Shown: in pieces, positions 3,443-63,638 of the stretch
Layout of the letters: each line of letters starts with the position of its first letter
How positions within the stretch are numbered: the stretch's first letter is position 1
Origin: Bdellovibrionales bacterium
GTDB taxonomy: Bacteria; Bdellovibrionota; Bdellovibrionia; Bdellovibrionales; JAGQZY01
Direction: 5' to 3'
DNA length: 64,000 nt
NCBI GenBank assembly: GCA_965219545.1
Contig: CBDCNX010000023.1
Coordinates: 1-64,000, forward strand
The notes under the pieces: generated by a model
Databases searched by the model: none
What the model was told of the DNA's origin: nothing
Seen by the model: the letters and a program-made list of their open reading frames with translations, nothing else
Position numbers and translations under genes: made by a program

Positions 3443-3730
3443 TCAGTTCTGAAATTTATCGTCAGTCTTAAGAAGAATTTTTTAAAAAACCAAGGAAAAT
3501 AAGATGTCATTCAGGGCTGATGACTTAAGACAAAAGGCTAATTTAAAAGTCAGTTATCACTTGTTCAACAAAATCCTTTTGTATTTTCCAAAATAATTTC
3601 TATACTTATTATGTGTACTGGTTGCAATTTAAATTTCACAGGTTTTTCCTTTTGAAACACCCCAATTTCAAGATCAGTATATGTGTATTAACCTTCAATT
3701 TTCAAAAATAAATAATAAGAGAGGTATTCC

Positions 3731-4885: not shown

Positions 4886-5276
4886 TTTCCACCCCCTGTG
4901 GTAAGATTTCAAACCCTTGTGGAGCAAATACCGGACCAAATTCTTTTTTTAATTTAATTTTCTAAATAACTGTAATTACTTTATTTTTTTGGAATCTCGT
5001 TTTGAAACAGCCTGTTTATATTTTTAAAAAAGAGACCCAAAATGTCGCTTCACCATGATCTTCCCAAAGAAATCTGTGAAAATTCAAAATGCAATCCGGT
5101 ATAGACACCCGAAATGTCAAATGATACCCATACCACACTGAGAGTGTTTGAATTTTTTTGGACCTCCGACAATTTTTATCAATGGGATTCAGATTAAAAC
5201 AAATGGATTCTCAATGAAAAACAGGGTATTTTTGTATATACTGACTTTGGATTTGAACTTTTAACGGTTTTATAAA

Positions 5277-5787: not shown

Positions 5788-6501
5788 TTAAATATTAGAA
5801 TGGATACGGGCACTGTCCTCATTGTCATCCAGGGCATCCAGGAACTCGTAAACTTCCCCAAGCTGTTCTTCACTCAAATCCTCTTTCTTGTTTTTGGCCT
5901 TATAGGATAATTCGCAGGTTTTAATATCCCAGTTTCTTTCTCCAAGAATTTTCTGAACACTGTCCAGGTCATCGGGATCGGTGTAAAAGGAATAAAAGTT
6001 TTCCCGGGAATGATTTTTCTCAACTTCATTGGCTCCCGCCTCAATGGCTTCCTCCTCACAATCAAAGTCTCCGGGGGGAGCCACTCCTTCCACCAGTCCG
6101 ATGCGATCAAACATCCAGAGAACACTTCCCTTCTCTCCCATCTGACCTTTATATTTTTTAAACATAAACCGGATCTCAGAAGCCGTACGGGCCCGATTGT
6201 CTGTCTGGCATTCAACCAACACAACCACCTGATGGGGGCCGTAGCCCTCATACATAATCTCTTCAATGATCTTTCCATCATCAAGGGAGCCTGTCCCTTT
6301 TTGAATGGCTCTGTTGATGGTTTCCTTGGGAACGGATTCCGCCCGGGCCGTATTGACAGCCAGTCTCAACCTGGCATTGGAGTCAGGATCCCCTCCCCCC
6401 AATCGGGCGGCCACTGTGATCTCTTTAGCCATCTTTGAAATCTGTGCCCCCTTTTTGGCGGCATTGGCCTGCTTCAATGGATTTTTCCAACTCTTTCCCA
6501 T
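5788..6501 (-). CDS. yebC: YebC/PmpR family DNA-binding transcriptional regulator
   Basis: 237 aa; N-terminal MGKSWKNPLK...KEITVAARLGGGDPDSNARLRLA matches the YebC family consensus. Confidence 0.85.
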   Translation of the reverse strand: MGKSWKNPLKQANAAKKGAQISKMAKEITVAARLGGGDPDSNARLRLAVNTARAESVPKETINRAIQKGTGSLDDGKIIEEIMYEGYGPHQVVVLVECQTDNRARTASEIRFMFKKYKGQMGEKGSVLWMFDRIGLVEGVAPPGDFDCEEEAIEAGANEVEKNHSRENFYSFYTDPDDLDSVQKILGERNWDIKTCELSYKAKNKKEDLSEEQLGEVYEFLDALDDNEDSARIHSNI

Positions 6502-6533: not shown

Positions 6534-6590
6534 CTCCACTGAGAGTGTTTGAGTTTCCATGGAATTTTTCTAAAAGATCATTTATAATAA
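6534..6590. repeat. partial copy of the TATACTGA-family intergenic repeat (arm plus truncated tail), upstream of yebC
   Basis: ccactgagagtgtttgagtttccatggaatttttctaaaagatcatttataataa aligns to the arm and start of the full elements at 9325, 20370 and 44155. Confidence 0.55.
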
Positions 6591-6851
6591 CCCATTATCA
6601 GAAATATAACCAAACGACATGAACATCAGAAAAAAGTAAAAGCCGTAATGCGTTATTAGTGTTTTAAATCTTTATCAATACACAATCCAGACTTTCAGCT
6701 TATATACTGATCATATTTGAACTTTTATGGAATTCTTCCAGGTAAAACCATGAAACTTAAAATACGATTTCCATTGATAATCGTCTTTAAACCTCCGCAG
6801 GCTCTTTCCATGTAAATCACACAAAAAAACAATGACCTTTGGATATAAATT

Positions 6852-8684
6852 ATGAAAAAAGTCACTTTCCTCATCATTATCCTGTTTTTTTCCAATTCAT
6901 GGGGAGATATTGAAAAGAAGGCATGGAGAGAAACCGGATACAAACTCCATCATTTTTTCTCCGCACTTTCAGACCGGGGGTTTTCCTGTTATGACTCTGA
7001 AAAACTTTTTGGGGCCTGTCTTATGGCTCTTCAGAGACTGATTCTTTTCACCGGTGATGAGTTTTACCAGTTGCGGGTTTCTGATTCCAACACCCTGGAG
7101 ATTGTTCCCAGTCCTGAAGAATCCAGGCCAAAAACAGAACAAGACATGATTGAATTCTTCAGACAAAACAGGGAGTCCTTTCATCTGCTCTTCCAAAGAT
7201 CTCCTCCAGGTCCTGAAGAACTTAACAAACTTTTCCATGAAATTCGTCTTTTGGCTGAAGAAAAAATCCCTGAAAAGGATCAATCTTTTCACGCAGGCCG
7301 GGCCCATGATTTTTTTCTCAAAGAAACCCACGATTCACACACCTCACTCATACCAAAAGCATTAACAGAAAATACTTTTGAACGCATCGGGTTTGGATTT
7401 GGTATCCTCAATTACCAGACAAATGATGAGACTTTGAACGGTTCTTATGTCATTGAAACTTTTAAAGATCTTCCAGCCTATAATGCAGGCCTCAGAAAAG
7501 GGGACCTCATACTGGCTATTGACGGTATTGATATCAGAGGCCTGCCCTTTGAAGAAGTGGATAAAATAATCAATGTTCCCGCAGGAACCCGGGTAAATTT
7601 CACTGTTCAGAGTTTTTGCGACAATAAAAAAAGAGAAGTCCCGGTGGTTCCCGCTCTCCTGTCTGTTTCCAATGCAACCTTTTTTGAGAAAAAACATCAG
7701 TTTGTTAACATCAACCGGGAAGAAGCCCCGGATTGTCCTTCAATCAAAAAAACAGAGGACAAACCTCCAACCCAACAGGCTTTTTACCTTTCTTTGCACA
7801 CTTTCAGTAACATAACCTGTGAAGAATTTGTTGGTTTACAGACAAAAGACCTGTCCAATCCGTTAAGCCTGGGTATGATTATTGATCTTCGCAATAACAA
7901 GGGAGGGGAACTGCCCCTGGTTATATGTATGCTTGAAAGCCTTATCTATAGTACCGACATTTTATTGAGCCTTATACCGGTTCACAGAGGCGAGGTTTTG
8001 TTAAATGACGATCCCAGAAAAATTCTTTTTCCCGCTCTCAGATATCTGTCAGCCTCACTTGATTTTGATTTTCAACCTGATAAAGACCTTATTCCCCTTC
8101 CCGTTTATAACAAAAATATTGTTGTTCTTGTCAACAAAGACTCGGCCAGTGTCTCTGAATTTTTTGCCGGAACCATTCAGGATATGAAACGGGGCTGGGT
8201 GGTTGGAGAACGCACCACTGGTAAAGGGAGTCTACAGGTTGAGGATTTATTTGACCTTGACCTTGAATCCGATCAAAGCATTTCTTACAAACCCCTTATT
8301 CAAACAACCACTCAATGGATCTACACTCTCAACAGTGGGCGATCACCCCAAATTACAGGAATTATTCCCGACTTTCAGTTCTCAAGAACCGGTGAAGCCA
8401 TTGCCCATGATCCTGATTCCATTTCCAGGAAAGTCTCTCTTTTAAACCCCATTCCATTTGAAAACAAAACCTGGGAGCAAAATCGTCCCATTGAAAAAGC
8501 AGAGTTGGAATCCTGCATCCATCAGGATGGCAAAATGGGGAAAAATCTTAAAAAAAGAATCAGAGAAGAGGAAAAATACAATCGTCCTTTCATCAACGAC
8601 TATCATCTTGAACTGGCAAAGGACATCCTGTCCTGTCTGCCCCCAAGGGAACTGTTCATGAGTATACCAAAGCCAGGTCAATAA
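6852..8684 (+). CDS. C-terminal processing (tail-specific) peptidase, S41 family with PDZ domain
   Basis: 610 aa with signal peptide; PDZ-like GLRKGDLILAIDGIDIRG; S41 core segments (VVLVNKDSASVSEFFAGTIQD, ERTTGKGS). Confidence 0.7.
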   Translation: MKKVTFLIIILFFSNSWGDIEKKAWRETGYKLHHFFSALSDRGFSCYDSEKLFGACLMALQRLILFTGDEFYQLRVSDSNTLEIVPSPEESRPKTEQDMIEFFRQNRESFHLLFQRSPPGPEELNKLFHEIRLLAEEKIPEKDQSFHAGRAHDFFLKETHDSHTSLIPKALTENTFERIGFGFGILNYQTNDETLNGSYVIETFKDLPAYNAGLRKGDLILAIDGIDIRGLPFEEVDKIINVPAGTRVNFTVQSFCDNKKREVPVVPALLSVSNATFFEKKHQFVNINREEAPDCPSIKKTEDKPPTQQAFYLSLHTFSNITCEEFVGLQTKDLSNPLSLGMIIDLRNNKGGELPLVICMLESLIYSTDILLSLIPVHRGEVLLNDDPRKILFPALRYLSASLDFDFQPDKDLIPLPVYNKNIVVLVNKDSASVSEFFAGTIQDMKRGWVVGERTTGKGSLQVEDLFDLDLESDQSISYKPLIQTTTQWIYTLNSGRSPQITGIIPDFQFSRTGEAIAHDPDSISRKVSLLNPIPFENKTWEQNRPIEKAELESCIHQDGKMGKNLKKRIREEEKYNRPFINDYHLELAKDILSCLPPRELFMSIPKPGQ

Positions 8685-8686
8685 AT

Positions 8687-9301
8687 TTATTTTTGACGAA
8701 GTCCGGGTCGCCACAACTCACAACTCAAATCGGCTGAATAAGGTGTTTTAACATCAAGAAGTTTTTCACGAACAAGCTCAATCATTGCCCCTTCCTCCAA
8801 ATCATTATTTAAAAGAAGTTGAACAACCTGATTGTTAACCATATAGTTGAATGTAAGAAGATATCTGTCCTGATCCCTGGCCAGACCCAATCTATAAAAG
8901 TTGTCCGTCTCATCAGATGTTCTCTCGTTGAAATCATAAACTTTTATTTCCTCTCCATCATTCCCTTTTTTTATGAACCAGGCTTTGACAAGCAATCGGT
9001 CCGCCCCCCTTAACCAGTCACTGGCCCCTTCTTCAAATTTCAATTTAAAACGAATCTGAAATCCATCGCCAAGATCAAAAAAACCTTTACCTCTGGAAAT
9101 CTTTTTGGAAGAAGATTCATCCCGAACCAAAGAAATCCATTGGACAAACTCAAAAGGCGAATTAAACGAGGATGGCTCTATGACAGTCTTAACTGTCGCC
9201 AATTCAACAACGCACTTCACCTCGTTTTCCCAAAGACCAGCCCCTCTGGAAACAACAGAAAGGCAACTCAAAAGAAGAATAACAAAAACTCTTATCATCA
9301 T
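8687..9301 (-). CDS. hypothetical secreted protein
   Basis: Signal peptide from the internal Met (MMIRVFVILLLSCLSVVS). The listed ORF start at 9361 is a GTG inside the repeat element. Confidence 0.35.
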   Translation of the reverse strand: MMIRVFVILLLSCLSVVSRGAGLWENEVKCVVELATVKTVIEPSSFNSPFEFVQWISLVRDESSSKKISRGKGFFDLGDGFQIRFKLKFEEGASDWLRGADRLLVKAWFIKKGNDGEEIKVYDFNERTSDETDNFYRLGLARDQDRYLLTFNYMVNNQVVQLLLNNDLEEGAMIELVREKLLDVKTPYSADLSCELWRPGLRQK

Positions 9302-9324: not shown

Positions 9325-9452
9325 ATATACTGAAGACCATTTGTTTTTCATGAGAGACCACTTGTTTTAAGCGGATTTTGGCTAAAGAAATTCAGCATAG
9401 AATAAATGATCTCTCAGGGAAATTCCATGAAAATTCAAACCGGACCAGTATA
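9325..9452. repeat. full-length TATACTGA...TCAGTATA MITE/REP-like element (copy A)
   Basis: atactgaagacca...ttttaagcggattttggctaaagaaattcagcatagaataaatgatctctcagggaaattccatgaaaattcaaaccggaccagtata. Near-identical copies at 20370-20475 and, reverse-complemented, at 44155-44291. Confidence 0.8.
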
Positions 9453-19039: not shown

Positions 19040-19501
19040 TTGATGAAATCACCTGTTCTATCCATTAAATTCAAAAATAAAATCATTCTTTTCTTTTGTA
19101 CATTCTATGTAATAACCCACCTTGCAGTGGCTTTCCTTTCAATCCGTTCCTGGCCCTTTACGGATTATCCAATGTTTGCCTACCCGGACTATAAAGAGGC
19201 CAAAATTATAATTTATGAATATTTTGTTCTTTTCACCGATGGGAGAGAAGTTCCTCTGAGAAGAGCCTTTACCCGTGGATTTGGATCCAATGATTGGAAT
19301 ATCAGTGCATTGGTAAAAAACAGAGATTTAATATCTCTAAAAAAAGTGTTCTCATACTGGTTGAAACATAAGGAAAACGGAGATCGAATCAAAGAAATTA
19401 TAATAAAAAAAGTGACTGTAACCAGACCTCTGAGCAGGAAAGACGAATTAAAAATGGATACCAAAACAGTGTTTAAAATCCCAAAAGAAGACTTGATATG
19501 A
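19040..19501 (+). CDS. hypothetical membrane protein, upstream partner of the HTTM gene
   Basis: 153 aa, one N-terminal TM; ATGA start/stop overlap with the next gene. Confidence 0.3.
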   Translation: MMKSPVLSIKFKNKIILFFCTFYVITHLAVAFLSIRSWPFTDYPMFAYPDYKEAKIIIYEYFVLFTDGREVPLRRAFTRGFGSNDWNISALVKNRDLISLKKVFSYWLKHKENGDRIKEIIIKKVTVTRPLSRKDELKMDTKTVFKIPKEDLI

Positions 19502-20367
19502 TCTCCCGCCTCCTGTTTGAAAAAAGACCGAATTGGATTTTACCTTTCTACAGATTTCTTTATCCACTTTTTATTATTAAGGAACTGTTACAGGAAAGGG
19601 ACTCGTTTTTTTACAGAGCTGAGTCAGAGCTTTGTTATCCCATTGAAATATTTTCCACTTTGTCCCTTCCAGTATTAAATGATTCAAATATTCATTTTTA
19701 TTTTAATTTCCTGTTGATTTCACTGCTCTTTTTATCCCTTGGAATCCTTACAAACATATCCGCATTACTTTCAAGTGGATTGTTTTTTTGGATCGTGGGC
19801 TCGACAATCAGTTGCTCCGCTATTGGCAGACCGCCCGTTTATATTCCATGGAATCATGCCATTGTTTTTTTTAATCTGATTGTTCTTTTCGTCTCACCTT
19901 CGGGAACGGGATTTTCAATTGACAGGTTTATTTTTCGCAAAAAAAATATTGAATTAAAAAACTGGCCGATTTTTTTATTAAAATTCAATTTGGTTTATTC
20001 CTATTTTGCCGGTGGAATTGCAAAACTCCAATATGGCCTGGACTGGATGAACGGCTACTCCCTCCAGACCCAACTAATATACAGACATATTGATCTGTAC
20101 ACTCCTTACGCTCTACCCATAATACACTCTCATCTCTTAGCTGTTGTAATTTCAATAATCGTCGTCATCACAGAGGTCCTGTTTCCATTATCCCTTTTTA
20201 ATAAAAAAATCGCATTTGTATGTATCAGTGGAAGTTTGGTATTTCAGGCCCTGTTTGCCTTTATTATTAAACTCAAGTGGATGCATTTTTTTGGATGGTC
20301 TTATTTTATTTATTTTCTGGAAGCAATGGCTTTTATAATAGCTGCAAAAAAATTAAAGAAAACATGA
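19498..20367 (+). CDS. HTTM (vitamin K-dependent gamma-carboxylase-like) domain membrane protein
   Basis: Polytopic membrane protein; YFAGGIAKLQYGLDWMNG matches the HTTM consensus (FFAGLaKLn.DWLnG). Confidence 0.45.
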   Translation: MISRLLFEKRPNWILPFYRFLYPLFIIKELLQERDSFFYRAESELCYPIEIFSTLSLPVLNDSNIHFYFNFLLISLLFLSLGILTNISALLSSGLFFWIVGSTISCSAIGRPPVYIPWNHAIVFFNLIVLFVSPSGTGFSIDRFIFRKKNIELKNWPIFLLKFNLVYSYFAGGIAKLQYGLDWMNGYSLQTQLIYRHIDLYTPYALPIIHSHLLAVVISIIVVITEVLFPLSLFNKKIAFVCISGSLVFQALFAFIIKLKWMHFFGWSYFIYFLEAMAFIIAAKKLKKT

Positions 20368-20369
20368 GG

Positions 20370-20475
20370 TATACTGAAGACCACTTGTTTTAAGCGGATT
20401 TTGACTAAAGAAATTCAGCATAGAATAAATGATCTTTGAGAGAAATTCCATGAAAATTCAAGCCGGACCAGTATA
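20370..20475. repeat. full-length TATACTGA...TCAGTATA MITE/REP-like element (copy B), inserted immediately after the stop codon of the HTTM gene
   Basis: About 95% identical to copy A over about 105 bp. Confidence 0.8.
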
Positions 20476-20549
20476 ACCGGATTCTTTCTTTAATTTGTTG
20501 CCATGTGAGATGAAAATCAAAAAGTTTCCAGTATATACTGATACCAGCA

Positions 20550-24445: not shown

Positions 24446-24487
24446 TATACACTGATTGCGTTTGAAATTTCAAACATGATCAGTATA
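24446..24487. repeat. short hairpin member of the TATACTGA family (about 20-bp inverted arms)
   Basis: tatacactgattgcgtttgaaatttcaaacatgatcagtata forms a perfect-stem palindrome with the family termini. Confidence 0.6.
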
Positions 24488-27533: not shown

Positions 27534-27544
27534 CTCCTTTTTAA

Positions 27545-27615
27545 GAGACCATTTGTTTTAAGCAGACCCCCTTAAAAAAGGTATCCGGCTTGGAATAAAT
27601 GATCTTTTATCCAGG
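27545..27615. repeat. degenerate partial copy of the TATACTGA-family element (tail region) just upstream of the flp pilin gene
   Basis: agagaccatttgttttaagcag...ggaataaatgatctttt aligns to the tail module of copies A and B. Confidence 0.45.
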
Positions 27616-28060: not shown

Positions 28061-28759
28061 GTGAGGTACAAAATGAAACAGAAAATGACTCTAGGACTTC
28101 TGGTTTTTTTCCTGGGAATTCTGATCACCGCCTGCGGTAGCAAGAAAAACAATGGTGGCAATGGTTGGAATCCGGATCGTGACCGTTTTGAAGACATAAG
28201 AATCCCCGAAGATTGTAACGGCCGTTGTGAAAGAACAGTGCATGCGACATTTTACGTCGAAGATAAAAATGAATATGCCGATATGTTTGGCTATCAGCCC
28301 TATGAAGGAAATGACCATATCGGAAATGTTCCTGACTTTGAAAGTTTTAATTGGGAATCATATCTTGCCACTATTTTTATAGGCAATGTGCTTGATCCCC
28401 TTCTTAGATGTGGTTCAACTATAATTACCGCCAAACTTTTAAGAAAGTTACTCCGTAGAGGTGGTAATGCTGAAGTGAGAGCCTTCTGTCGATCTGGTGG
28501 TGGCTACGATGATGATATTGATGACTCCTATGGTGTGGATATTGAATTCAATTTTGACGAAAGAGTCAGTGGTAACGGAATTGATTCCATCGATCTGAAA
28601 GTTAAAAGAGACAGATCAAGGGATCTCATAGAATTTGATCGTCGCCAAAGTGACCATGTTTTTTACGATCACAGTGGAGATTACGAGCTTGAAATTGATG
28701 GAGACAGAATTTATATCACAGGTCCTTCCAACACAGAAGTGGGCTTCATCGAAAAATAA
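28061..28759 (+). CDS. hypothetical acidic lipoprotein
   Basis: Signal peptide with lipobox LITACGS; D/E-rich C-terminal half with repeated D-x-D/G patterns, possibly cation-binding. Confidence 0.4.
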   Translation: MRYKMKQKMTLGLLVFFLGILITACGSKKNNGGNGWNPDRDRFEDIRIPEDCNGRCERTVHATFYVEDKNEYADMFGYQPYEGNDHIGNVPDFESFNWESYLATIFIGNVLDPLLRCGSTIITAKLLRKLLRRGGNAEVRAFCRSGGGYDDDIDDSYGVDIEFNFDERVSGNGIDSIDLKVKRDRSRDLIEFDRRQSDHVFYDHSGDYELEIDGDRIYITGPSNTEVGFIEK

Positions 28760-28784: not shown

Positions 28785-28818
28785 AAAACGCAAACCAAAC
28801 ACGGTTTGCGTTTTTTTA
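28785..28818 (+). terminator. Rho-independent terminator downstream of the acidic lipoprotein gene
   Basis: aacgcaaacc-aaacac-ggtttgcgtt stem-loop followed by T7. Confidence 0.65.
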
Positions 28819-28930
28819 TGGACAATCCGCTAGTGGTTTGTCCTAACAGTGAACCCCATAAAAAATCAAATACGATCACTACATCTAACCTCATCACTGA
28901 TTTCATTCCTATATATTTCTCTTTAAAAAA

Positions 28931-29002
28931 ATACTAAAAATCATTTATTTTTCATGCTATTTCCATAGAGAAATTCCATGAAAATTCAAACCGGATCAGT
29001 AT
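28931..29002. repeat. partial TATACTGA-family element (arm plus tail type 2) at the 3' end of the VWA lipoprotein array
   Basis: atactaaaaatcatttatttttcatgctatttccatagagaaattccatgaaaattcaaaccggatcagtata is the reverse complement of the right part of copy C (44155-44291). Confidence 0.65.
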
Positions 29003-29010
29003 AAAATCCC

Positions 29011-30105
29011 TCAAAGACCGACGGGTTCCGGTGTATAAAAAGGTTCATAATCAACAAGAAAATTTCCCCCTGTTTTTTCCAGGCGAATGTTTCTGGACAG
29101 ATGAATGCTGTTCTTGTCCATATCATAACTCCAACCATCAGGACCTTTGTGAATCAATTGACTTTTACCCTTATAACTGTAACGAACCTCCATGGTTTCC
29201 ACATTGGGTAAATCATCAAGGGGAATGGAAAGAACGGAGTCCACAAGATGATTGGCAAATCGAGCGAGATCCTTCCCGTAATCAAACTGACAGAAGTTGA
29301 AATAATAGCCACGCTCATTAAAGAGGTCTGTCATTTCGATAAAATTGGTGGGTGGCTCATCCTCCAGTTTGCAATCATACCGAAGCATTGGAAAAGTAAC
29401 AATCCCGGCGGCATAATGGAGTTTTGTTTCATCACCCTTTTTAAGATCCAACAAAAACCGGTAGGACTGATAAGGAGGAACATCACTCTGGTCAAAACTG
29501 TCTGTTATAACAAAAATGGCAAGATGGGCTTCGGGACGGTAGAAAGCGGAATTCTCCTCAAGTCTTTTTCCCGATAAAGCCAGAGCGGGAATATTAAAAA
29601 ACTCCTCCCGACAGAGGGACCCGATTCCAACCTTCATCATTTCACTCAGACAACCACCCCCCATGGGAGTGTTCCTGTCCACATAATTGGGATAAGGGTA
29701 TTTGTACTTTGTCGCCATATCTGTACATCTCATCAAACGACCTTCATAAGCTTTGGATTCGGAAACCAGGTCAACATCATCGTGCAGGTCCTCTCGTCTT
29801 GAACACCTCAATTCCGGTAATGAAGCGGTCACGGCAATATGATAATCAATGAGTTCCACATCCAGAAACTCATTGATAAACAGACTGGCATTTCTTGCCA
29901 AAAGTTCCTGAATAGGTCTCATGCTGTCTGAATTGTCAATAATAAACAGAATATCAACAGCCGGAGTGTAATTCACAACGGACTTTCTGACAATTTCACT
30001 TTCCAAACGAAGTTGTTTTTTGAAACCGGAATTTTCCCGGCAACCGGGGGAAAAACAAAAAAAAAAGACAACACACCAAAGACTATTTGTTTTATCAAAA
30101 ACCAT
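29011..30105 (-). CDS. VWA-domain lipoprotein, CglB-like adhesin family, paralog 1
   Basis: Signal/lipobox (...FSPGC); VDILFIIDNSDSMRPIQELLARNASLFINEFLDVELIDYHIAVT has the DxSxS MIDAS-like motif; conserved C-terminal block GPDGWSYDMDKNSIHLSRNIRL...VDYE; multiple Cys. Start taken at the internal Met (ORF extends to 30150). Confidence 0.6.
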   Translation of the reverse strand: MVFDKTNSLWCVVFFFCFSPGCRENSGFKKQLRLESEIVRKSVVNYTPAVDILFIIDNSDSMRPIQELLARNASLFINEFLDVELIDYHIAVTASLPELRCSRREDLHDDVDLVSESKAYEGRLMRCTDMATKYKYPYPNYVDRNTPMGGGCLSEMMKVGIGSLCREEFFNIPALALSGKRLEENSAFYRPEAHLAIFVITDSFDQSDVPPYQSYRFLLDLKKGDETKLHYAAGIVTFPMLRYDCKLEDEPPTNFIEMTDLFNERGYYFNFCQFDYGKDLARFANHLVDSVLSIPLDDLPNVETMEVRYSYKGKSQLIHKGPDGWSYDMDKNSIHLSRNIRLEKTGGNFLVDYEPFYTPEPVGL

Positions 30106-30188
30106 TTGTTTATATATTTGTTTATACAAAAGACCCACTCTTTCTTTCAATTTGTTGTCATACTAACCAATGACTCGTAATAAATATA

Positions 30189-31271
30189 TTAAAGCTCAGA
30201 GACATAAAGCCATTCATATTTAACATTAAATTCTCCCCCCACCCGGTCTAAATGAATATTCCTGGATAAACGAATAGCATTATTTTCCATATCATAGGTC
30301 CACCCATCAGGTCCCATTGGAATCACCTGACTTCCCCCTTTGTAATTATAACGAACCTCCAAAGTATCCAGATCAGGTAAATCATCAAGAGGGATCGTCG
30401 ATGCCGAATCAACCAGATGAGCGGCAAATTCAGAAAGACTTTTCCCATAATTAAACCGACAGAGATTAAACCAGTAACCACGGGGGCCGGAGAACTCCAC
30501 CATCTTCATAATTTTAGACGGGAAACGGGGCGGCTCTCTACTGCATTTATATCCCGGGACCTCAAAGGCGATAATCCCCGCAGCATAGTGAATTTTCCTT
30601 TCATCGCCTTTCTTAAGGTTTAATAAAAAATCATAGGCTCTGTACGGACTGGCACCACTGTGATCAAAGGCATCCGTTATAACAAAAACAGCCAAATGAG
30701 CCCAGGAACGGTAGAAAGAGGAATTTTCAGCTTTTGAAAAAACCAGGGATGGAATATCAATAAAGTGTTCCGAATCATCACCTGTAACTCCTACATCCAT
30801 CATTTCACTGAGACACTCCTCTACTCCGGGAGTGTTCCTGTCCACATAATTGGAGTAATTGTATTTTTTTTCTTCAGCCAGACCATCACACCTGACCAAT
30901 TGGCCTCCATAAGAAGTCTCATAAAGTTTTTTTTCGAGTTCCTCTTTATCCATATGACTCCCATCAGAATCTTTGGTTAACGAGGAATTGGTGACAGCAA
31001 TGTGATAATCAACAAATTCCACATCCAGAAACTCATCAATAAACAAACTGGCATTTTTTGCCAAAAGTTTCTGAATGGGTCTCATACTTCCTGTATTGTC
31101 AATAATAAACAGAATATCAACAGCCGGATTGTAATGACTTGTAGCAACTTTGTTGACAACCTTGGGGCCAAAACGGGATTTTTTTGGAATGGATTTCTGA
31201 CAACCTGTCAAATAAAAACAGTAAAGAAAAAGAACAACTATTCTGAGTTTTTTAAAAAAATCTTTTTTCAC
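30189..31271 (-). CDS. VWA-domain lipoprotein, CglB-like adhesin family, paralog 2
   Basis: MKKDFFKKLRIVVLFLYCFYLTGCQ lipoprotein signal; VDILFIIDNTGSMRPIQKLLAKNASLFIDEFLDVEFVDYHIAVT; C-terminal GPDGWTYDMENNAIRLSRNIHL. Confidence 0.6.
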   Translation of the reverse strand: MKKDFFKKLRIVVLFLYCFYLTGCQKSIPKKSRFGPKVVNKVATSHYNPAVDILFIIDNTGSMRPIQKLLAKNASLFIDEFLDVEFVDYHIAVTNSSLTKDSDGSHMDKEELEKKLYETSYGGQLVRCDGLAEEKKYNYSNYVDRNTPGVEECLSEMMDVGVTGDDSEHFIDIPSLVFSKAENSSFYRSWAHLAVFVITDAFDHSGASPYRAYDFLLNLKKGDERKIHYAAGIIAFEVPGYKCSREPPRFPSKIMKMVEFSGPRGYWFNLCRFNYGKSLSEFAAHLVDSASTIPLDDLPDLDTLEVRYNYKGGSQVIPMGPDGWTYDMENNAIRLSRNIHLDRVGGEFNVKYEWLYVSEL

Positions 31272-31324
31272 TGTTTCTCCACTTTTCCAGTCAATTACGA
31301 ACTTTTCACAAAGAACCTGATTGA

Positions 31325-32485
31325 TTAAAAGGCAATTCCCTGATCAGGCTCAAAAGTGTAAATGGATTTATATTTAACATTGAATTTTCCCCCTGCCTGG
31401 CTCAAATGAATATCCCTGGATAAACGAATGGCATTGTTTTCCATATCATAGGTCCAGCCCTCAGAACCCTTTGGAACCACCTGACTTCCCCCTTTGTAAT
31501 TATAACGAATCTCCAGAGTATTCATATCAGGTAAATCATCAAGAGGGATGGTCAATACCGAATCAACCAGACGAGCGGCAAATTCAGCGAGATGTTTTCC
31601 ATAATTAAACCGACAGAGATTAAACCAGTAACCACGGGGACCGGAGAACTCCACCATCTTCATAATTTTGTGAGGGAAATAACGGGAGTCAGGAACACTA
31701 TCTCCATCCCTAACACTCTCTCTATCTCTATCACATTCATATCCCAGAGCTTCAAAGGCGACAATCCCCGCAGCGTAGTGAATTTTTCTTTCATCGCCTC
31801 TTTTAAGATTTGATAAAAAATCATAGGCTCTGTACGAACTGACAGAACTGTGATCAGAGGCATCCGTTATAACAAAGATGGCCAAATGGGCCCCTGGGCG
31901 GTAAAAAGAGGAATTTTCACCCTGAATCATTTCCTTTGAAAAAACCAGGGGTGGAATATTAAGAAAATATTCGGAATCCTGACCTGTAATTCCAACATTT
32001 ATCATTTCACTGAGACACTTCTCTGCTTCAGGAGTGTTCCTGTCCACATAATTGGAATGATTGTATTTCATGTTTTCAGCCAGTTTATCACATCTTTTTA
32101 AACGACCTCCGTAAACAGACCTCTCAAGCTGTTCAAGTGCATCTTCATGTAAATAGCTCCCCTGAACTTTAGGAAAGTAGTCTCTTCTTAATGAAGAACT
32201 GGTGACAGCAATATGGTAATCAACAAATTCCACATCCAGAAACTCATCAATAAACAAACTGGCATTTTTTGCCAAAAGTTTCTGAACAGGTCTCATACTC
32301 GGTGAATTATCAATAATAAACAGAACATCCAAATCGGGATTGTAATGACTTGTAACAAACTCGTTGACAACCTTCTGTTCTAAACGGGGTTTTCTTTTCG
32401 GAATGGACTCCTGACAACCTGTCAAATAAAAACAGTAAAGAAAAAGAACAACTGTTCTGGGTTTTTTAAAAAAATCTTTTTTCAC
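31325..32485 (-). CDS. VWA-domain lipoprotein, CglB-like adhesin family, paralog 3
   Basis: 5' end nearly identical to paralog 2 (MKKDFFKKPRTVVLFLYCFYLTGCQ); LDVLFIIDNSPSMRPVQKLLAKNASLFIDEFLDVEFVDYHIAVT; extra acidic insert (DRDRESVRDGDSVPDSR). Confidence 0.6.
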   Translation of the reverse strand: MKKDFFKKPRTVVLFLYCFYLTGCQESIPKRKPRLEQKVVNEFVTSHYNPDLDVLFIIDNSPSMRPVQKLLAKNASLFIDEFLDVEFVDYHIAVTSSSLRRDYFPKVQGSYLHEDALEQLERSVYGGRLKRCDKLAENMKYNHSNYVDRNTPEAEKCLSEMINVGITGQDSEYFLNIPPLVFSKEMIQGENSSFYRPGAHLAIFVITDASDHSSVSSYRAYDFLSNLKRGDERKIHYAAGIVAFEALGYECDRDRESVRDGDSVPDSRYFPHKIMKMVEFSGPRGYWFNLCRFNYGKHLAEFAARLVDSVLTIPLDDLPDMNTLEIRYNYKGGSQVVPKGSEGWTYDMENNAIRLSRDIHLSQAGGKFNVKYKSIYTFEPDQGIAF

Positions 32486-32517
32486 TGTTTTTCAAACACT
32501 CCTGTCTTTCCAATCAA

Positions 32518-33594
32518 TTAAAAAGCAACTCTCTGATCAGATTCAAAGGTGTAAAAATGTTCATATTTAACATTGAATTTTCCCCCTGCCCGGCTCAAAT
32601 GAATATCCCTGGATAAATGAATAACATTGTTTTCCACATTGTAAGTCCAGCCCTCAGAACCCCTTGGAATCACCTGACTTCCCCCTTTGTACTTATAACG
32701 AACCTCTATGGTGTCCAGATCAGGCCAATAATCAAGGGAAATTGTCGATACTGAATCCACCAGGTGACTGGCAAATTCAGCAAGATTTTTCCCATAATTA
32801 AACTGACAGAGATTAAACAGATAACCACGGGGACCGAGAAGCTCCACCATTCCCATAAGTTTTGGAGGAAACCCATACCCTGGTTCTCTTTCGCAACGAT
32901 ATTGATGCAACTCAATGACAACAGAACCAAGAGCATAATGAAGCTTTTTTTCATCCCCTTTTTTAAGGGCTTTTAAAAAAGTATAGGACTCTTTAGGTGT
33001 AAACTCACTGTTATCATCCGAGTCTGTTATGGCAAAAACAGCCAAATGAGCCTCCGGGCGATAAAATTTTGAATTCTCTTTTCTATACTCCGACTGTAAA
33101 GACAAAGCCATATCAGGAATAACAAGAAACTGTTCTTCCAAATTGCCCCGAACCCCAACCTTCACCATCTCTTTAAAACATTCCACCGCTTCAGGAGTGT
33201 TTCTGTCCACATAATTGGGATAATTATAATTGTTTTTTTCTGCCAGTTTCTCACAGGAATGTAACTCTCCATTATAGGCGACACTATTGCTATTATAATC
33301 CTCCACTGACGAAGTGGTCACAGCAATACGGTAATCAACAAATTTCACACCCAGAAACTGATTAATAAACACTTCAGCATTTTTTGCCAGAAGATCCTGC
33401 TCAGTCTTCATACTGTCTGAGTCATCAATAATAAAAAGAATATCAACAGCCGAATTGTAATTGGTTGTGACAAACCTGTTAACCACCTGTTTTTTCTGAA
33501 GAGTGTATTTTTTCTTTGGAGAACCGGAAGGGCAACCCATTAGGGTAAGAAAACAGAAAAAGACAGCAAAGGCTTTTATACCTGCTTTATCCAT
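32518..33594 (-). CDS. VWA-domain lipoprotein, CglB-like adhesin family, paralog 4
   Basis: Lipobox FLTLMGC; VDILFIIDDSDSMKTEQDLLAKNAEVFINQFLGVKFVDYRIAVT; C-terminal GSEGWTYNVENNVIHLSRDIHL. Confidence 0.6.
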   Translation of the reverse strand: MDKAGIKAFAVFFCFLTLMGCPSGSPKKKYTLQKKQVVNRFVTTNYNSAVDILFIIDDSDSMKTEQDLLAKNAEVFINQFLGVKFVDYRIAVTTSSVEDYNSNSVAYNGELHSCEKLAEKNNYNYPNYVDRNTPEAVECFKEMVKVGVRGNLEEQFLVIPDMALSLQSEYRKENSKFYRPEAHLAVFAITDSDDNSEFTPKESYTFLKALKKGDEKKLHYALGSVVIELHQYRCEREPGYGFPPKLMGMVELLGPRGYLFNLCQFNYGKNLAEFASHLVDSVSTISLDYWPDLDTIEVRYKYKGGSQVIPRGSEGWTYNVENNVIHLSRDIHLSRAGGKFNVKYEHFYTFESDQRVAF

Positions 33595-37481: not shown

Positions 37482-37661
37482 AAAAACTCCTTTGAAAATA
37501 CAGACCGATTCCGTTTTGAATTTCATATTGATTTCCCCGGAAAATTCACGGAATTCAAAATGGAATGAATCCTACACAATGTTACCAATGAACCCCCCCA
37601 TGAAGTGAAACTCTAGTACAGAATTACTATATCTTTAAACACTTTTCAATCATCCCTTTTT

Positions 37662-39098: not shown

Positions 39099-39158
39099 CC
39101 CTTTTTATACGTTCAGGTTTTTACAAAGTCACAAAAACAAATGGTCTTCATTATAAAT

Positions 39159-42100: not shown

Positions 42101-42167
42101 AAAAAAAGATCAATTTTCCCAGGCGGGAGATAAAAAACAAATTCAAACAATTTCCAGTATTTTTCAT
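39159..42167 (-). CDS. large secreted TPR-repeat protein (GltD/AgmU-like candidate)
   Basis: 1002 aa; signal/TM at N-terminus; many TPR-like helical pairs (AxxxYxxA/LxxxG patterns) throughout. Confidence 0.55.
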   Translation of the reverse strand: MKNTGNCLNLFFISRLGKLIFFSGLLIVLVLIVFSQRARAVPGNQTRIQTQDLLIGKLKGIFSGLPENSPDRVKVGLRLADLHAERGRLQAKKELEKGCIECTGGQEDRKQALMYYHYVLPHLDSNQLQIVLIQVGHLHELVGQNSKAIDLYRKVVDGSRGLLKAEAEFSLAEIYFKQRDFRKAGSHYQRTLAEDSFKRRGLAGFRLAWCLYNTGDVLGAVSGLEKMLKTPELLTRNREILSGVDEDFKAEIARDYTVFMAHNQQVDLQAIGKVFELSPDGENQILNVSFLARELERLGQIQQSEQAWKLVVEKADQLQVRIDALINLASLSFRTGGKEKLFSYFQRALSQWKSLLLAESKTEKSLKKFQSGKLQGIQSTEQVQSGELKMRLRNIVFDWNRDEKKTPSKELIMAYEAYFEVDSKDAEAFKLASQTALLAEDFSRAYHWNGKAMSLTRDNKVLESLLLRGIEIAEKAKNPQWLTASQNLYLEKSVERSKLSEVRYQIAQVHYENKNYEVAAGKFQKLAKYPSASSKLKLQSAEMALDCLVFTKDDSTIETWGREFAKSFPDQKKHFLGLVGQAVLSQAARLSSDHEKAWTVLSRFDVSYADPGKVKTYYENKIILSRQLNKFREMEESLQAFLALDNITDKERRFALENKVWLDETQLDFNDAYLSYKKLEMDDWLRLAHLADLAEKPSEKYYFKYLKTTQDPKLAFSICFKLVEKSGTLKGPYQSCVSHLKKDREVFASLIIDTYGGKGPLSPLFNRLKTHGLEKTWLASVVSRGLLLKRGETWLKKLERHKLGIGRLARSIQQRLNLINRFERVIGDATKTEDWLVQVVFLDHLKTQYTRFYEDLMALPVSGDLGEKEKQEFMTLLSEQVTPYKLKADRIQLKIDELWKDQNSQDRLYADFHKSSLGVQALLGPQIEKLGSVKSSSGLLNLVYRQNGKRQLSSVSSLEAAREQVRKTPMDKKALKKLVELETIRGYQPMIIYLSNRLEKMD

Positions 42168-44154: not shown

Positions 44155-44291
44155 TATACTGATCGTGTTTGAGTTTTCATGGAATTTCCCTGAGAGATCA
44201 TTTATTCTATGCTGAATTTCTTTAGCCAAAATCCGCTTAAAACAAGTGGTCTCTATGAAAATAGCATGAAAAATAAATGATCTTTAGTATA
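44155..44291. repeat. full-length TATACTGA...TCAGTATA element (copy C, inverted orientation, carries both tail modules)
   Basis: tatactgatcgtgtttgagttttcatggaatttccctgagagatcatttattctatgctgaatttctttagccaaaatccgcttaaaacaagtggtctctatgaaaatagcatgaaaaataaatgatctttagtata. Confidence 0.8.
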
Positions 44292-49543: not shown

Positions 49544-50645
49544 ATGAGCCTTCTCATCACAGGGGGGGCTGGATTTATAGGTTCCAACTTCATTCATCAC
49601 TGGCTAAAAAATAATGACGAACAGATTATCAATCTGGATAAACTCACCTACGCCGGAAATTTGGGAAATCTTTCCACATTAAAAAATGATCCCCGTCATA
49701 TTTTTGTTCAAGGGGATATCAACGACTTCCCACTGGTTGCCAATTTACTGGAAAAACACAAACCCCGAATCATTATCAACTTTGCTGCGGAGTCCCATGT
49801 AGACCGCTCCATTCAGGGTCCCGATGCCTTTATCCAGACCAATATTATGGGAACCTTTCAGCTTCTAAAAGCCGCTCTGGCTTACTGGCAAAATCTTCCA
49901 AAACCTTCTGAAAAAAAACGGCGGAGATCATCCCCTGGGTCAAAACACTTTTTGTTTCATCCACGTTTCAACCGATGAGGTTTATGGTTCCCTGAAGCCT
50001 GATGACCCGGCCTTTACAGAGGAAAATAACTACAAACCCAACAGTCCCTACAGTGCCAGTAAAGCCTCTTCGGATCACCTGGTCCGCTCCTATTATCACA
50101 CCTATGGACTTCCAACCGTTATCACCAACTGTTCCAACAATTACGGCCCCTACCAGTTTCCTGAAAAACTCATTCCCCTGATAATTCAAAACGCACTGAA
50201 TGGAAAAAATCTTCCCATTTACGGGGATGGACAGCAGATCAGGGACTGGCTCTATGTGATTGACCACTGCAAGGCTCTGTGCCGTGTCCTTGAAGCAGGA
50301 AAACCCGGTGAAGTCTACAACATAGGGGGATTTAACGAAAAAACCAACCTTGAAATCGTTCACACTCTCTGTGAGCTTCTTGATGAAAAACATCCCCTGT
50401 CCCAGGGACAGTCCTACAAAAATCAGATCAGCTTTGTTAAAGACCGCCCCGGACACGACCGGCGATACGCCATTGACAGCCATAAAATAAAAAGGGAACT
50501 TTACTGGATGCCCGAAGAAACCCTTGAAACCGGTCTTGAAAAAACCCTTGAATGGTATCTGGATAACCAAAACTGGGCCAAACAGACCATGACCCGTGAA
50601 TCCTACCAAAGCTGGATAAATACCCAATACGCTGATCCTGTTTGA
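49544..50645 (+). CDS. rfbB: dTDP-glucose 4,6-dehydratase, one apparent frameshift near position 49920
   Basis: [16 protein letters not shown]...; after an A8 run the frame switches to STDEVYGSL...[15 protein letters not shown]...[17 protein letters not shown]..., the RfbB catalytic YxxxK region. Confidence 0.8.
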
Positions 50646-50725
50646 ATTCCAGGAAAAGATCATTTATTCTGAGCCGGATTTTTTATAATAAGAAGATTTG
50701 TTTAAAATAAATAATCTGACAACGC

Positions 50726-53236: not shown

Positions 53237-53310
53237 TATACTGATTCCATTTGAATTTTCGGTTGTTTTCAGGAGAGAAAAACTCCGAAAATTCAGACGG
53301 GATCAGCATA
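53237..53310. repeat. short hairpin member of the TATACTGA family
   Basis: tatactgattccatttgaattttcgg...ccgaaaattcagacgggatcagcata; about 26-bp inverted arms with family termini. Confidence 0.6.
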
Positions 53311-56897: not shown

Positions 56898-57005
56898 TAG
56901 TTGACATCTTTTAGAAAAAACCAAATAAGTTCCATTACAACTAACCGACTAAAAACAGTCAGATCAATTTGGAAATAACAATGCTAACATTCAATCAAAA
57001 ATAAA

Positions 57006-57914: not shown

Positions 57915-58019
57915 TTGACATCTTTTAGAAAAAACCAAATAAGTTCCATTACAACTAACCGACTAAAAACAGTCAGATCAATTTGGAAATAACAATGCTA
58001 ACATTCAATCAAAAATAAA

Positions 58020-63565: not shown

Positions 63566-63638
63566 TATACTGATCCGGTTTGAATTTTCAGGTGTTTTAT
63601 AAGGGAAAAATCGTGAAAACTCAAACACGACCAGTATA
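63566..63638. repeat. short hairpin member of the TATACTGA family
   Basis: tatactgatccggtttgaattttcagg...cgtgaaaactcaaacacgaccagtata; about 25-bp inverted arms. Confidence 0.65.

What the first reader, a model, noticed from the sequence alone, without database searches (positions are those of the whole stretch)
9325..9452. Novel MITE/REP-like intergenic element family with TATACTGA...TCAGTATA termini
Seen in sequence: roughly 105-137 bp elements at 9325-9452, 20370-20475 and, reverse-complemented, 44155-44291. They share about 95% identity.

They have a modular structure:
- a 35-bp arm, tatactgRTCNNgtttgaRttttcatggaatttcc
- a 65-bp tail module, ctgagagatcatttattctatgctgaatttctttagccaaaatccgcttaaaacaagtggtcttcagtat
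- optionally a second 40-bp tail module, ctctatgRaaatagcatgaaaaataaatgatctttagtata, seen in copy C and alone at 28931-29002

All copies are bounded by short terminal inverted repeats (TATACTGA / TCAGTATA). Partial or degenerate copies occur at 5135-5165, 6534-6590, 6703-6770 and 27545-27615.

All copies sit in promoter or terminator-proximal intergenic DNA. Copy B is inserted exactly after a stop codon, copy A lies in a 5' region, and the 6534 copy lies just upstream of yebC.

No transposase is present, so these are non-autonomous. They could act as mobile promoters or terminators, or encode a small-RNA family.
Basis: seen in the sequence. Interest (0 to 1): 0.62.

Follow-up and report, generated by a model that had tools for sequence, protein, structure and literature searches.

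The report
IS630-derived miniature transposons (MITEs)
The repeats are real: they are small, gene-less transposon relics (MITEs) that carry the end sequences of an IS630/Tc1-mariner-type insertion sequence and sit between genes of an uncultured Bdellovibrio-like bacterium. This is an ordinary, well-known kind of element in a new host.

Summary
Copies A (9326-9452), B (20370-20475) and C (44155-44291) are 91-96% identical. The arm motif occurs 11 times in the window against 0 expected, and I count about 19 complete, short or decayed elements, all intergenic.

That TIR matches at 24 of 27 positions the ends of full-length IS630-family insertion sequences in related Bdellovibrionota genomes. Their transposases hit NCBIfam NF033545 and Pfam DDE_3 plus HTH domains. 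For one such IS, removing the element and one TA restores an interrupted gene, which shows TA target duplication.

The "modules" are the two TIRs plus an optional internal palindrome of about 62 bp. The 74-bp element at 28930-29003 is a complete core element, not a stray module.

The same element families lie at other loci in a related MAG, so these are not local duplications. They are not REP/BIME, not an Rfam family and not terminators. No transposase lies in the window. I could not retrieve an empty site for any window copy, or a cognate transposase from this genome.

Verdict: a new member of a known kind, closest to RUP/IS630-Spn1 and Correia elements. Low to moderate interest.

The parts
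9326..9452 (-). Copy A. Long-variant MITE, 127 bp including the flanking TA at each end (9326-9327 and 9451-9452). The diverged TIR (TACTGAAGACCATTTGTTTTTCATG) is on the left and the IS-like TIR (reverse complement TACTGGTCCGGTTTGAATTTTCATG) is on the right. An internal palindrome of about 62 bp lies between them.
   Evidence: It lies about 26 nt upstream of the likely start (9299) of the minus-strand gene 8687-9299.
20370..20475 (-). Copy B. 106-bp deletion variant of the long MITE, lacking about 21 bp of the diverged TIR region. It is flanked by TA on both sides. Its left TA starts 2 nt after the stop codon of gene 19498-20367.
   Evidence: The orthologous intergenic region in a distant relative (L072) is 53 bp and has no element.
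44155..44291 (+). Copy C. 137-bp long-variant MITE with the IS-like TIR at 44155 and the diverged TIR at 44291, flanked by TA on both sides. It sits between the divergent exbB-like (43153-43830, minus) and lnt (44516-46057, plus) genes.
28930..29003 (-). Complete 74-bp core MITE: both TIRs and no internal palindrome. The left flanking TA has mutated to AA. It lies 7 nt from the 3' end of gene 29011-30150 (minus).
   Evidence: The same core type occurs in the related MAG (L053, L057, L033).
63566..63638 (.). 73-bp symmetric hairpin MITE with two IS-like TIRs, flanked by TA on both sides. It lies 51 nt upstream of the glycosyltransferase gene 61337-63514 (minus).
   Evidence: Its left TIR matches the P0133 IS630 TIR at 24 of 27 positions.
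53237..53310 (.). 74-bp symmetric hairpin MITE between rmlC (52609-53160) and a 2OG-Fe(II) oxygenase gene (53352-54170). The right tip has mutated from CAGTATA to CAGCATA.
24448..24487 (.). 40-bp mini-hairpin made of two abutting TIRs with no internal sequence.
   Evidence: The same 40-bp form occurs in L006 and L050.
3613..3682 (.). Degenerate hairpin MITE of about 70 bp, of the same subfamily as 63566-63638.
   Evidence: Its internal AGGTTTTTCCTTTTGAAA matches the L068 2657-2729 element.
5055..5268 (.). Cluster of decayed elements upstream of sufE: a TIR relic at 5055-5103, a decayed core element at 5136-5229 and an arm relic at 5236-5268.
6537..6590 (+). Partial element, consisting of a decayed IS-like TIR plus adjoining sequence. 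It lies 35 nt upstream of the yebC start at 6501 (minus strand).
6703..6770 (.). Degenerate hairpin element upstream of the S41 peptidase gene 6852-8684.
20508..20543 (+). Solo TIR relic (ATGAAAATCAAAAAGTTTCCAGTA), then TA, then 7-10 nt of an opposing TIR tip. Together these form the 12-nt palindrome CAGTATATACTG. It lies 6 nt upstream of the MFS gene ATG at 20550.
27544..27612 (+). Fragment of the internal palindrome module without TIRs.
28860..28885 (+). Decayed TIR relic.
   Evidence: This is a weak match.
37503..37570 (.). Degenerate hairpin element with eroded tips.
   Evidence: This is a weak match.
39133..39155 (-). Solo fragment of the diverged TIR (AAAAACAAATGGTCTTCATTATA), 3 nt beyond the stop codon of gene 39159-42167.
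50632..50690 (+). Degenerate partial element consisting of a TIR without its tip plus the start of the internal module.

Best explanation
These are MITEs: non-autonomous deletion derivatives of an IS630/Tc1-mariner-family insertion sequence. Each element is a pair of imperfect terminal inverted repeats of about 24-27 bp (TACTGRTCNNGTTTGARTTTTC...). Between the repeats there is either almost nothing (40-bp and 73-74-bp forms) or an extra palindrome of about 62 bp (106-137-bp forms). Each element is flanked by the duplicated TA target.

Proposed mechanism:
1. An IS630-family DDE transposase, encoded elsewhere in the genome now or in the past, binds the repeats through its N-terminal helix-turn-helix domains.
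2. It cuts the element out.
3. It re-inserts the element at a TA dinucleotide and duplicates that TA.

Copies persist where they do no harm, meaning in intergenic DNA close to gene starts and ends. Older copies decay into the many partial relics.

Shown here:
- The TIR matches those of IS630-family ISs.
- One full-length IS with this TIR duplicates a TA target.
- Both ends of the window copies carry TA.
- Copies are dispersed at non-homologous sites in at least two species.

Inferred:
- Mobilisation in trans.
- Whether the family is still active.

Any promoter or RNA effect would be a by-product of insertion.
For: 1. The repeat family is real and far above chance. All of the roughly 19 copies and relics are intergenic.

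2. In Bdellovibrionales MAG OZ241877 (L045) the same terminal sequence bounds a 1135-bp IS.
- Its 338-aa ORF hits Pfam DDE_3 plus HTH_33, HTH_29 and HTH_23.
- It hits NCBIfam NF033545 'IS630 family transposase' at 211.7 bits against a cut-off of 100.
- Four identical copies exist (L012, L038, L042, L045).

3. Deleting that IS plus one TA fuses two ORF fragments into one uninterrupted ORF. This shows insertion at TA with TA duplication.

4. Independent ISs whose transposases are 61-94% identical to the L045 transposase carry related ends.
- These include one named 'IS630 family transposase [Pseudobacteriovorax sp.]' by NCBI (P0133), plus P0055 and P0016.
- P0133 and P0055 carry TATACCGATCCGGTTT(G/A)A(G/A)(T/A)TTTCC at both ends, and P0016 carries the L045-type ends. 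Flanks differ between the P0133 and P0055 copies.

5. Window TIRs match these IS TIRs at 24 of 27 positions.

6. Every complete window copy ends in TA-TAC...GTA-TA, apart from point mutations at 28930 and at the tips of 24448-24487 and 53237-53310.

7. In the loci, the far end of each element was not constrained by the search pattern, yet it also ends ...GTA-TA.

8. Adjacent elements share a single TA (window 20529; L049).

9. The same long (136-138 bp) and core (73-74 bp) forms occur at 85-93% identity at unrelated loci of the nearest available genome, CBDCLX. Their flanks are entirely different.

10. Published biochemistry shows that the 24-bp TIRs alone suffice for IS630-family (ISY100) transposition into TA (PMC2170065). 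RUP and Correia are established IS630-type bacterial MITEs (PMC2229807, PMC2817692).
Against: - No transposase lies in the 64-kb window. The rest of this genome could not be searched, so a cognate transposase in the same genome is not shown.
- No clean filled-versus-empty comparison was obtained for any window copy. The only syntenic stretch of the nearest genome breaks at the relevant point. The one orthologous intergenic region retrieved comes from a distant relative with 57% amino-acid identity. Two metagenome scans found nothing.
- Because the target is always TA, the flanking TA of the MITEs cannot be told apart from a conserved TATA tip by sequence alone.
- The second TIR of the long and core forms is markedly diverged from the IS TIR, at 19-22 identities over 27-33 aligned positions. 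Its competence for transposase binding is uncertain.
Confidence: 0.9

Rival explanations
1. REP/BIME-type repeats. These would be short extragenic palindromes multiplied by a RAYT (IS200/IS605-like tyrosine transposase) and acting as binding sites or mRNA stabilisers.
For: The elements are intergenic, palindromic and abundant, and some occur in clusters such as 5055-5268.
Against: - REPs are 20-40-nt, usually GC-rich palindromes with a conserved GT(A/G)G head, and they flank a rayt gene (PMC2817692).
- These elements are 40-137 bp, AT-rich and start with TA-TACTG.
- They share their ends with DDE (IS630) transposase genes, not with Y1 transposase genes.
Confidence: 0.02
2. A structured small-RNA family or a cis-regulatory hairpin (terminator, attenuator or RNase III target) that is maintained by selection and merely looks transposon-like.
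For: - Each copy folds into a long stem more stable than its shuffles, with z-scores from -2.1 to -7.8.
- Copies sit next to gene starts and stops.
- Correia MITE transcripts are known RNase III substrates (reference list of PMC2229807).
Against: - No Rfam family reaches its gathering score.
- No terminator-like hairpin followed by a T-run was found.
- Copies occur in both orientations, and both 5' and 3' of genes.
- In 28 elements, the arms are barely more alike at the variable positions within an element than between elements (0.65 vs 0.59; 3% of partner shuffles reach the observed value). The 73-74-bp subfamily keeps a fixed arm asymmetry (CGTG vs CCGG) that creates mismatches.
- The palindromy is fully explained by the TIRs.
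Confidence: 0.04
3. Local segmental duplication or gene conversion of a single intergenic sequence within this contig, with no transposition.
For: The three long copies are 91-96% identical and lie within 35 kb of each other.
Against: - The flanks are unrelated right up to the TATAC...GTATA boundaries.
- The same forms occur at other loci in another species' genome.
- The same termini occur in many Bdellovibrionota MAGs with different internal sequences.
Confidence: 0.01
4. MITEs as above, but secondarily co-opted. The TIR tip plus the flank would form an outward-reading promoter (ATGAAA-N16-TATA plus 2 flanking nt) that drives the neighbouring gene.
For: - Promoter-like hexamer pairs read out of TIRs toward downstream genes at three places: 9351->9324 (toward gene 8687-9299), 44180->44153 (TATAAT, 10 of 12 matches, toward the exbB-like gene) and 20510->20539 (toward the MFS gene).
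- By eye, the reverse-complemented left tip of 63566-63638 also reads TGAAAA-N17-TATAAT toward gene 61337-63514.
Against: - The number of promoter-like sites does not exceed that in shuffles of the same regions.
- The -35-like hexamer is weak.
- Several TIR tips point at convergent genes or at nothing.
- There are no expression data, and the promoter consensus of this lineage is unknown.
Confidence: 0.15

Closest known systems
RUP (repeat unit of pneumococcus) and IS630-Spn1, Streptococcus pneumoniae
   Same: - A gene-less intergenic repeat of about 107 bp whose TIRs resemble those of a resident IS630-family IS.
- It inserts at TA, and trans-mobilisation is proposed (PMC2229807).
- The logic is the same here: the TIRs match IS630-family ISs at 24 of 27 positions, and TA flanks each copy.
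   Different: - Unrelated sequence and host (Bdellovibrionota MAG).
- The TIRs here are longer, at 24-27 bp.
- Several size classes coexist (40, 73-74 and 106-137 bp).
- The cognate IS was found only in related genomes, not yet in this one.
Correia / NEMIS elements, Neisseria
   Same: - MITEs with 24-bp TIRs (Table 1 of PMC2229807) and TA at the termini.
- Two main size classes, about 107 and 155 bp, that differ by a 50-bp internal segment (PMC2229807). This parallels the 74-bp core here versus the long form with an internal palindrome of about 62 bp.
- They are classed as IS630-derived MITEs in PMC2817692.
   Different: - By my own recollection the TIR sequences are not similar. This was not tested here.
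- Correia elements carry IHF sites and documented promoters and RNase III processing. None of that is shown here.
ISY100 (ISTcSa) of Synechocystis and its mini-transposons
   Same: - An IS630-family element with 24-bp imperfect TIRs.
- The transposase binds the TIRs through two N-terminal HTH motifs.
- Thirty bp from each end are sufficient for transposition, and insertion is at TA with TA duplication (PMC2170065).
- This is the biochemical model for how the window elements would move.
   Different: - ISY100 is autonomous and experimentally characterised.
- The window elements are natural, gene-less derivatives of a different IS630 clade, whose transposases are 336-338 aa against 282 aa for ISY100.
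Stowaway MITEs of plants (Tc1/mariner-mobilised)
   Same: Non-autonomous, with a TA target and TIRs borrowed from mariner-superfamily transposons (PMC6881990 abstract).
   Different: These are eukaryotic and have no sequence relationship to the window elements.
REP/BIME elements with RAYT transposases
   Same: Abundant intergenic palindromic repeats that sometimes occur in clusters.
   Different: - REPs have a GT(A/G)G head and a 20-40-nt palindrome, and they depend on a tyrosine transposase (PMC2817692).
- The elements here have DDE-type TIRs and TA flanks.

Membership tests
IS630/Tc1-mariner-derived MITE | Terminal inverted repeats homologous to those of an autonomous IS630-family insertion sequence | tested here: met
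   - Window TIRs match the TIRs of ISs that encode NF033545/DDE_3 transposases at 24 of 27 positions.
- The association of this TIR with such a transposase was seen in four IS lineages: L045, P0016, P0055 and P0133.
IS630/Tc1-mariner-derived MITE | The autonomous relative inserts at TA and duplicates it | tested here: met
   In L045, removing the 1135-bp IS and one TA restores an uninterrupted ORF across the insertion site.
IS630/Tc1-mariner-derived MITE | The MITE copies themselves are flanked by a duplicated TA, shown by comparing filled and empty sites | tested here: inconclusive
   - All complete window copies are flanked by TA on both sides. The one exception is the AA at 28930.
- No empty site could be retrieved.
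- Because the target is invariant, a TA duplication cannot be told apart from a conserved tip by sequence alone.
IS630/Tc1-mariner-derived MITE | Small size and no coding capacity | tested here: met
   - The elements are 40-137 bp.
- None lies inside an ORF, apart from overlaps with probably over-extended ORF starts.
IS630/Tc1-mariner-derived MITE | Multiple dispersed copies at non-homologous sites with sharp boundaries | tested here: met
   - About 19 copies or relics in 64 kb, and 11 motif matches against 0 expected.
- The alignment shows unrelated flanks outside TATAC...GTATA.
- Copies occur at other loci in MAG CBDCLX.
IS630/Tc1-mariner-derived MITE | A cognate transposase is present in the same genome | not testable with these tools
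   - None in the window (tblastn).
- The rest of the source genome could not be retrieved.
REP/BIME | A 20-40-nt palindrome with a conserved GT(A/G)G head (PMC2817692) | tested here: not met
   The termini read TATACTG... There is no GTAG head, and the units are 40-137 bp and AT-rich.
REP/BIME | Association with a RAYT (Y1 transposase) gene flanked by the repeats | not tested
   - No dedicated search for Y1 transposases was run.
- The repeats flank DDE (IS630) transposase genes in related genomes.
Known RNA families (Rfam 15) | A match at or above a family's gathering score | tested here: not met
   There were 0 matches over the whole window on both strands.
Intrinsic terminator | A GC-rich hairpin followed by a T-run | tested here: not met
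   There were 0 terminator-like sites in the three regions holding copies A, B and C.

The most novel reading that the evidence does not exclude
The family may be more than junk in two untested ways.

(a) The long variants could have an 'IR-DR'-like layout. Each half has an outer TIR and also an inner copy of the sub-terminal repeat (GAGAGAYCAYTTRTTYTA...) that lacks the cleavage tip. This resembles Sleeping Beauty and Tc3, where two transposase-binding sites per end regulate transposition. That architecture is not, to my knowledge, described for prokaryotic IS630 MITEs.

(b) The TIR tips could have been co-opted as portable outward promoters for neighbouring housekeeping genes.

In addition, the same 24-nt end occurs in Planctomycetota and Verrucomicrobia MAGs joined to a different opposite end. 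This could indicate a cross-phylum IS630 clade that spawns asymmetric MITEs.
Probability: 0.12. Interest if true: 0.45.

Novelty: new member of a known kind. Interest (0 to 1): 0.25.

Why it matters
The value is mainly practical.
- The family explains about 19 odd intergenic repeats in 64 kb, roughly one per 3-4 kb. That is a very high MITE load for a bacterium.
- The repeats can break metagenome assemblies and can mislead small-RNA or promoter predictions in Bdellovibrionota MAGs.
- It gives a clear pairing of TIR and transposase for a poorly studied IS630 clade.
- It supplies markers (filled versus empty sites) for strain typing of these uncultured predators.
- It does not reveal a new mechanism.

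Tried and rejected
1. Rfam scan of the whole window: no hits. tRNA scan: none.
2. Exact look-ups of the window protein beside copy B and of its closest homologues: P0001 and P0002 were not on record. Only a relative with 57% amino-acid identity could be fetched. It has a 53-bp intergenic region without an element, which is suggestive but too distant to count as an empty site.
3. Synteny with the nearest genome, CBDCLX: only window 8350-9299 aligns (L057). Synteny breaks exactly upstream of the gene next to copy A, at what I read as an IS91-like fragment (not checked against a family library), so no empty site was obtained.
4. Metagenome scans, one for a 22-mer spanning the left junction of copy B and one for the internal module: both returned 0 hits, so this lineage appears to be absent from that collection.
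5. Viral-contig scan for the TIR: three hits that look like chance matches inside coding sequence.
6. Cluster look-up to identify the source record: no accessions or names were returned.
7. ISAzo13 as the parent IS: rejected. The PF07592 fragment next to a TIR in L061 is a truncated, unrelated IS abutting a solo TIR. Intact transposases bounded by the TIR on both sides are IS630-family.
8. IS66 as the parent: rejected. The ORF next to the TIR in L046 looks to me like an IS66-type C-terminal fragment (not checked against a family library), and the TIR is on one side only.
9. Terminator and promoter scans: no enrichment.
10. Arm covariation test: only marginal.

Full report
**Observation**

Reading the three stated intervals shows the repeats directly.
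- Copy A is TATACTG...CAGTATA at 9326-9452.
- Copy B is 20370-20475.
- Copy C is 44155-44291, in the opposite orientation.

Identities:
- A vs C: 96% over 101 nt.
- A vs B: 95% over 100 nt.
- B vs C: 91-94%.

The most conserved arm, written as TATACTGRTNNNNNTTGARTTTTC, matches 11 times with up to 2 mismatches in the window. None of 100 dinucleotide-preserving shuffles gave any match.

A profile of the arm (nhmmer) and manual reading added further copies.
- Decayed relics: 5055-5268, 6537-6590, 6703-6770, 20508-20543, 27544-27612, 28860-28885, 37503-37570, 39133-39155 and 50632-50690.

That makes about 19 elements or relics in 64 kb. All lie in the roughly 14% of the window not covered by long ORFs. 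The only overlaps are with ORF starts that are probably over-extended. The flanking genes are ordinary housekeeping genes, including sufE, yebC, an S41 peptidase, an MFS transporter, exbB, lnt and rmlC/rmlD.

**Anatomy**

I aligned the window copies with copies from a related genome. The flanks are unrelated right up to TATAC...GTATA. There are two nested size classes.
- A core of 73-74 bp, seen at window 28930-29003 and in L053, L057 and L033. It consists of two imperfect inverted ends and about 16 bp between them.
- A long form of 127-138 bp, seen in A, C, L043 and L001. It is the same core with an internal palindrome of about 62 bp inserted.
- B is the long form with a deletion of about 21 bp between two similar sub-repeats.

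- The '35-bp arm' is one TIR.
- The '40-bp second tail module' is the other TIR, which is more diverged. It is also present in A.
- The '65-bp tail module' is the optional internal palindrome.

A second subfamily (53237-53310, 63566-63638, 3613-3682) has the first TIR type at both ends, and 24448-24487 is just two abutting TIRs. All fold as long imperfect hairpins, with z-scores from -2.1 to -7.8 against shuffles. That is what any TIR-bounded mini-element would do.

**What the ends are**

- Most multi-hit genomes are Bdellovibrionales or Oligoflexia MAGs.
- Single hits in Vibrio, Shewanella, Flavobacterium and others are in the range expected by chance for 17 specified bases in 596 Gb. This is my own estimate.
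- The window's nearest relative in that set is MAG CBDCLX. It is 81-88% identical in nucleotides over window 8350-9299. It carries the same long and core elements, 85-93% identical to the window's, at unrelated loci.

In the other Bdellovibrionota MAGs the same 24-nt end bounds elements with quite different interiors. Each closes with the inverted end ...GTA-TA, which the search pattern did not constrain.

In MAG OZ241877 the motif bounds four identical copies of a 1135-bp element (L012, L038, L042, L045).
- Its 338-aa ORF matches Pfam DDE_3, HTH_33, HTH_29 and HTH_23.
- It matches NCBIfam NF033545 'IS630 family transposase' at 211.7 bits against a cut-off of 100.
- In L045 the element interrupts a gene. 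Deleting the element plus one TA joins the two fragments into one uninterrupted ORF. This demonstrates TA target duplication for this IS.

A protein search with that transposase found 2472 relatives at E <= 1e-30. I fetched the DNA around three of them.
- P0133 is 61% identical and NCBI names it as an IS630 family transposase of Pseudobacteriovorax.
- P0055 is 67% identical.
- P0016 is 94% identical.
- P0133 and P0055 carry TATACCGATCCGGTTT(G/A)A(G/A)(T/A)TTTCC at both ends, and P0016 carries the L045-type ends. Flanks differ between the P0133 and P0055 copies.

Window TIRs match these IS ends at 24 of 27 positions.

**Mechanism**

IS630/Tc1-mariner transposases bind their TIRs through N-terminal HTH domains. 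They excise the element by double-strand breaks and insert it at TA, which they duplicate. For ISY100, 30 bp from each end are sufficient (PMC2170065). The window elements have what that reaction needs in cis and nothing else, so the best explanation is trans-mobilisation by a transposase of this clade.

Consistent details:
- Every complete copy is flanked by TA on both sides. The exception is AA at 28930, and the tips of 24448-24487 and 53237-53310 each carry one point mutation.
- Neighbouring elements share a single TA. At window 20529 the sequence CAGTA-TA-TACTG shows this, and L049 shows it too.
- The two arms of an element are barely more alike at variable positions than arms of different elements (0.65 vs 0.59; 3% of partner shuffles reach the observed value). 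The 73-74-bp subfamily keeps a fixed asymmetry.
- Both points suggest each arm is read by a protein, not kept paired as RNA.

**What is not shown**
- The window has no IS630 transposase, and I could not search the rest of the genome.
- No empty site was found for any window copy.
  - The syntenic stretch of CBDCLX ends just at copy A, at what I read as an IS91-like fragment; I did not check that reading against a family library.
  - The orthologous B locus was found only in a relative with 57% amino-acid identity. There the intergenic region is 53 bp without an element, against 182 bp in the window, of which 106 bp is copy B.
  - Two metagenome scans returned nothing.
- The diverged TIR of the core and long forms matches the IS-like TIRs at only 19-22 identities over 27-33 aligned positions.

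**Rivals**
- REP/BIME is excluded by the termini. There is no GT(A/G)G head, the units are 40-137 bp and AT-rich, and the associated genes are DDE transposases, not tyrosine transposases (PMC2817692).
- A selected RNA or terminator is unsupported. There is no Rfam match and no hairpin followed by a T-run. Copies occur in both orientations, and both 5' and 3' of genes.
- Local duplication is excluded by the sharp boundaries and by the copies in other genomes.
- A by-product role as outward promoters is possible. ATGAAA-N16-TATA plus two flanking nt reads out of TIR tips toward the genes at 9299, 43830 and 20550. These sites are no more frequent than in shuffles, and nothing is known about expression.

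**Comparison with known families and novelty**

The closest analogues are:
- RUP with IS630-Spn1, which has the same TIR logic and TA target.
- Correia/NEMIS, which has 24-bp TIRs, TA termini and two size classes differing by an internal segment (PMC2229807, PMC2817692).

I found no paper on IS630 MITEs in Bdellovibrionota in the library searched. This particular family is therefore probably undescribed, but it is a new member of a well-known kind.

The density, about one element per 3-4 kb, is high. The long variant's inner sub-terminal repeats recall the IR-DR ends of some eukaryotic Tc1 elements, and that is the most novel reading left open. Interest is low to moderate.

Noticed in passing
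window 29011-33594 (minus strand): Four tandem paralogous ORFs of about 360-386 aa, 60-86% identical in nucleotides, repeating every 1.15-1.2 kb. The first has no Pfam match at 1e-5. This is a locally expanded family of unknown function.
   Followed up: partly
window 55899-59036 (plus strand): Three tandem paralogous ORFs of about 302-338 aa. One 300-nt stretch is 96% identical between neighbours (56889-57188 vs 57903-58202), which suggests recent tandem duplication.
   Followed up: no
window 20508-20543: A solo TIR relic followed by TA and the first 7-10 nt of an opposing TIR, forming the perfect 12-nt palindrome CAGTATATACTG at 20529. It lies 6 nt before the ATG of the MFS transporter gene. 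It could be a remnant of an internally deleted or excised element, and it overlaps a promoter-like ATGAAA-N18-TATACT.
   Followed up: partly
L008, L023, L037, L048 (Thermoguttaceae); L009, L014, L052, L054, L058, L062 (Phycisphaerae and related); L025, L044, L069 (Verrucomicrobia): MAGs of other phyla carry the same 24-nt left end. In the Planctomycetota loci it belongs to 100-175-bp elements with a different, or only weakly inverted, right end such as ...ACCCTTAAGGGTATA. In the Verrucomicrobia loci no opposite end was recognisable. These may be asymmetric MITEs of a related IS630 clade, or the result of horizontal spread.
   Followed up: partly
L061 5854-6184; L046 4919-5608; L057 about 6200-6450 (MAG CBDCLX): In the nearest relative, TIR copies abut fragments of other insertion sequences. 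One is a truncated ISAzo13 transposase (PF07592). I read two others, without a family search, as an IS66-like C-terminal fragment and an IS91-like fragment at the synteny break with the window. This recalls RUP's tendency to land in IS elements.
   Followed up: partly
window 28786-28820: A hairpin that reads like a classical intrinsic terminator (AAAAAACGCAAACC...GGTTTGCGTTTTTTT) lies downstream of gene 28061-28759 and upstream of the MITE at 28930-29003. I noted it by eye and did not run the terminator scan on this stretch. If it is real, termination there does not depend on the MITE.
   Followed up: no
L045 1678-1735: The left end of the full-length IS630 element itself contains a sub-terminal inverted partial copy of its own TIR (CATGAAAATTATCAGTA). 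It therefore has a hairpin-like end that could be a seed for mini-hairpin MITEs.
   Followed up: no
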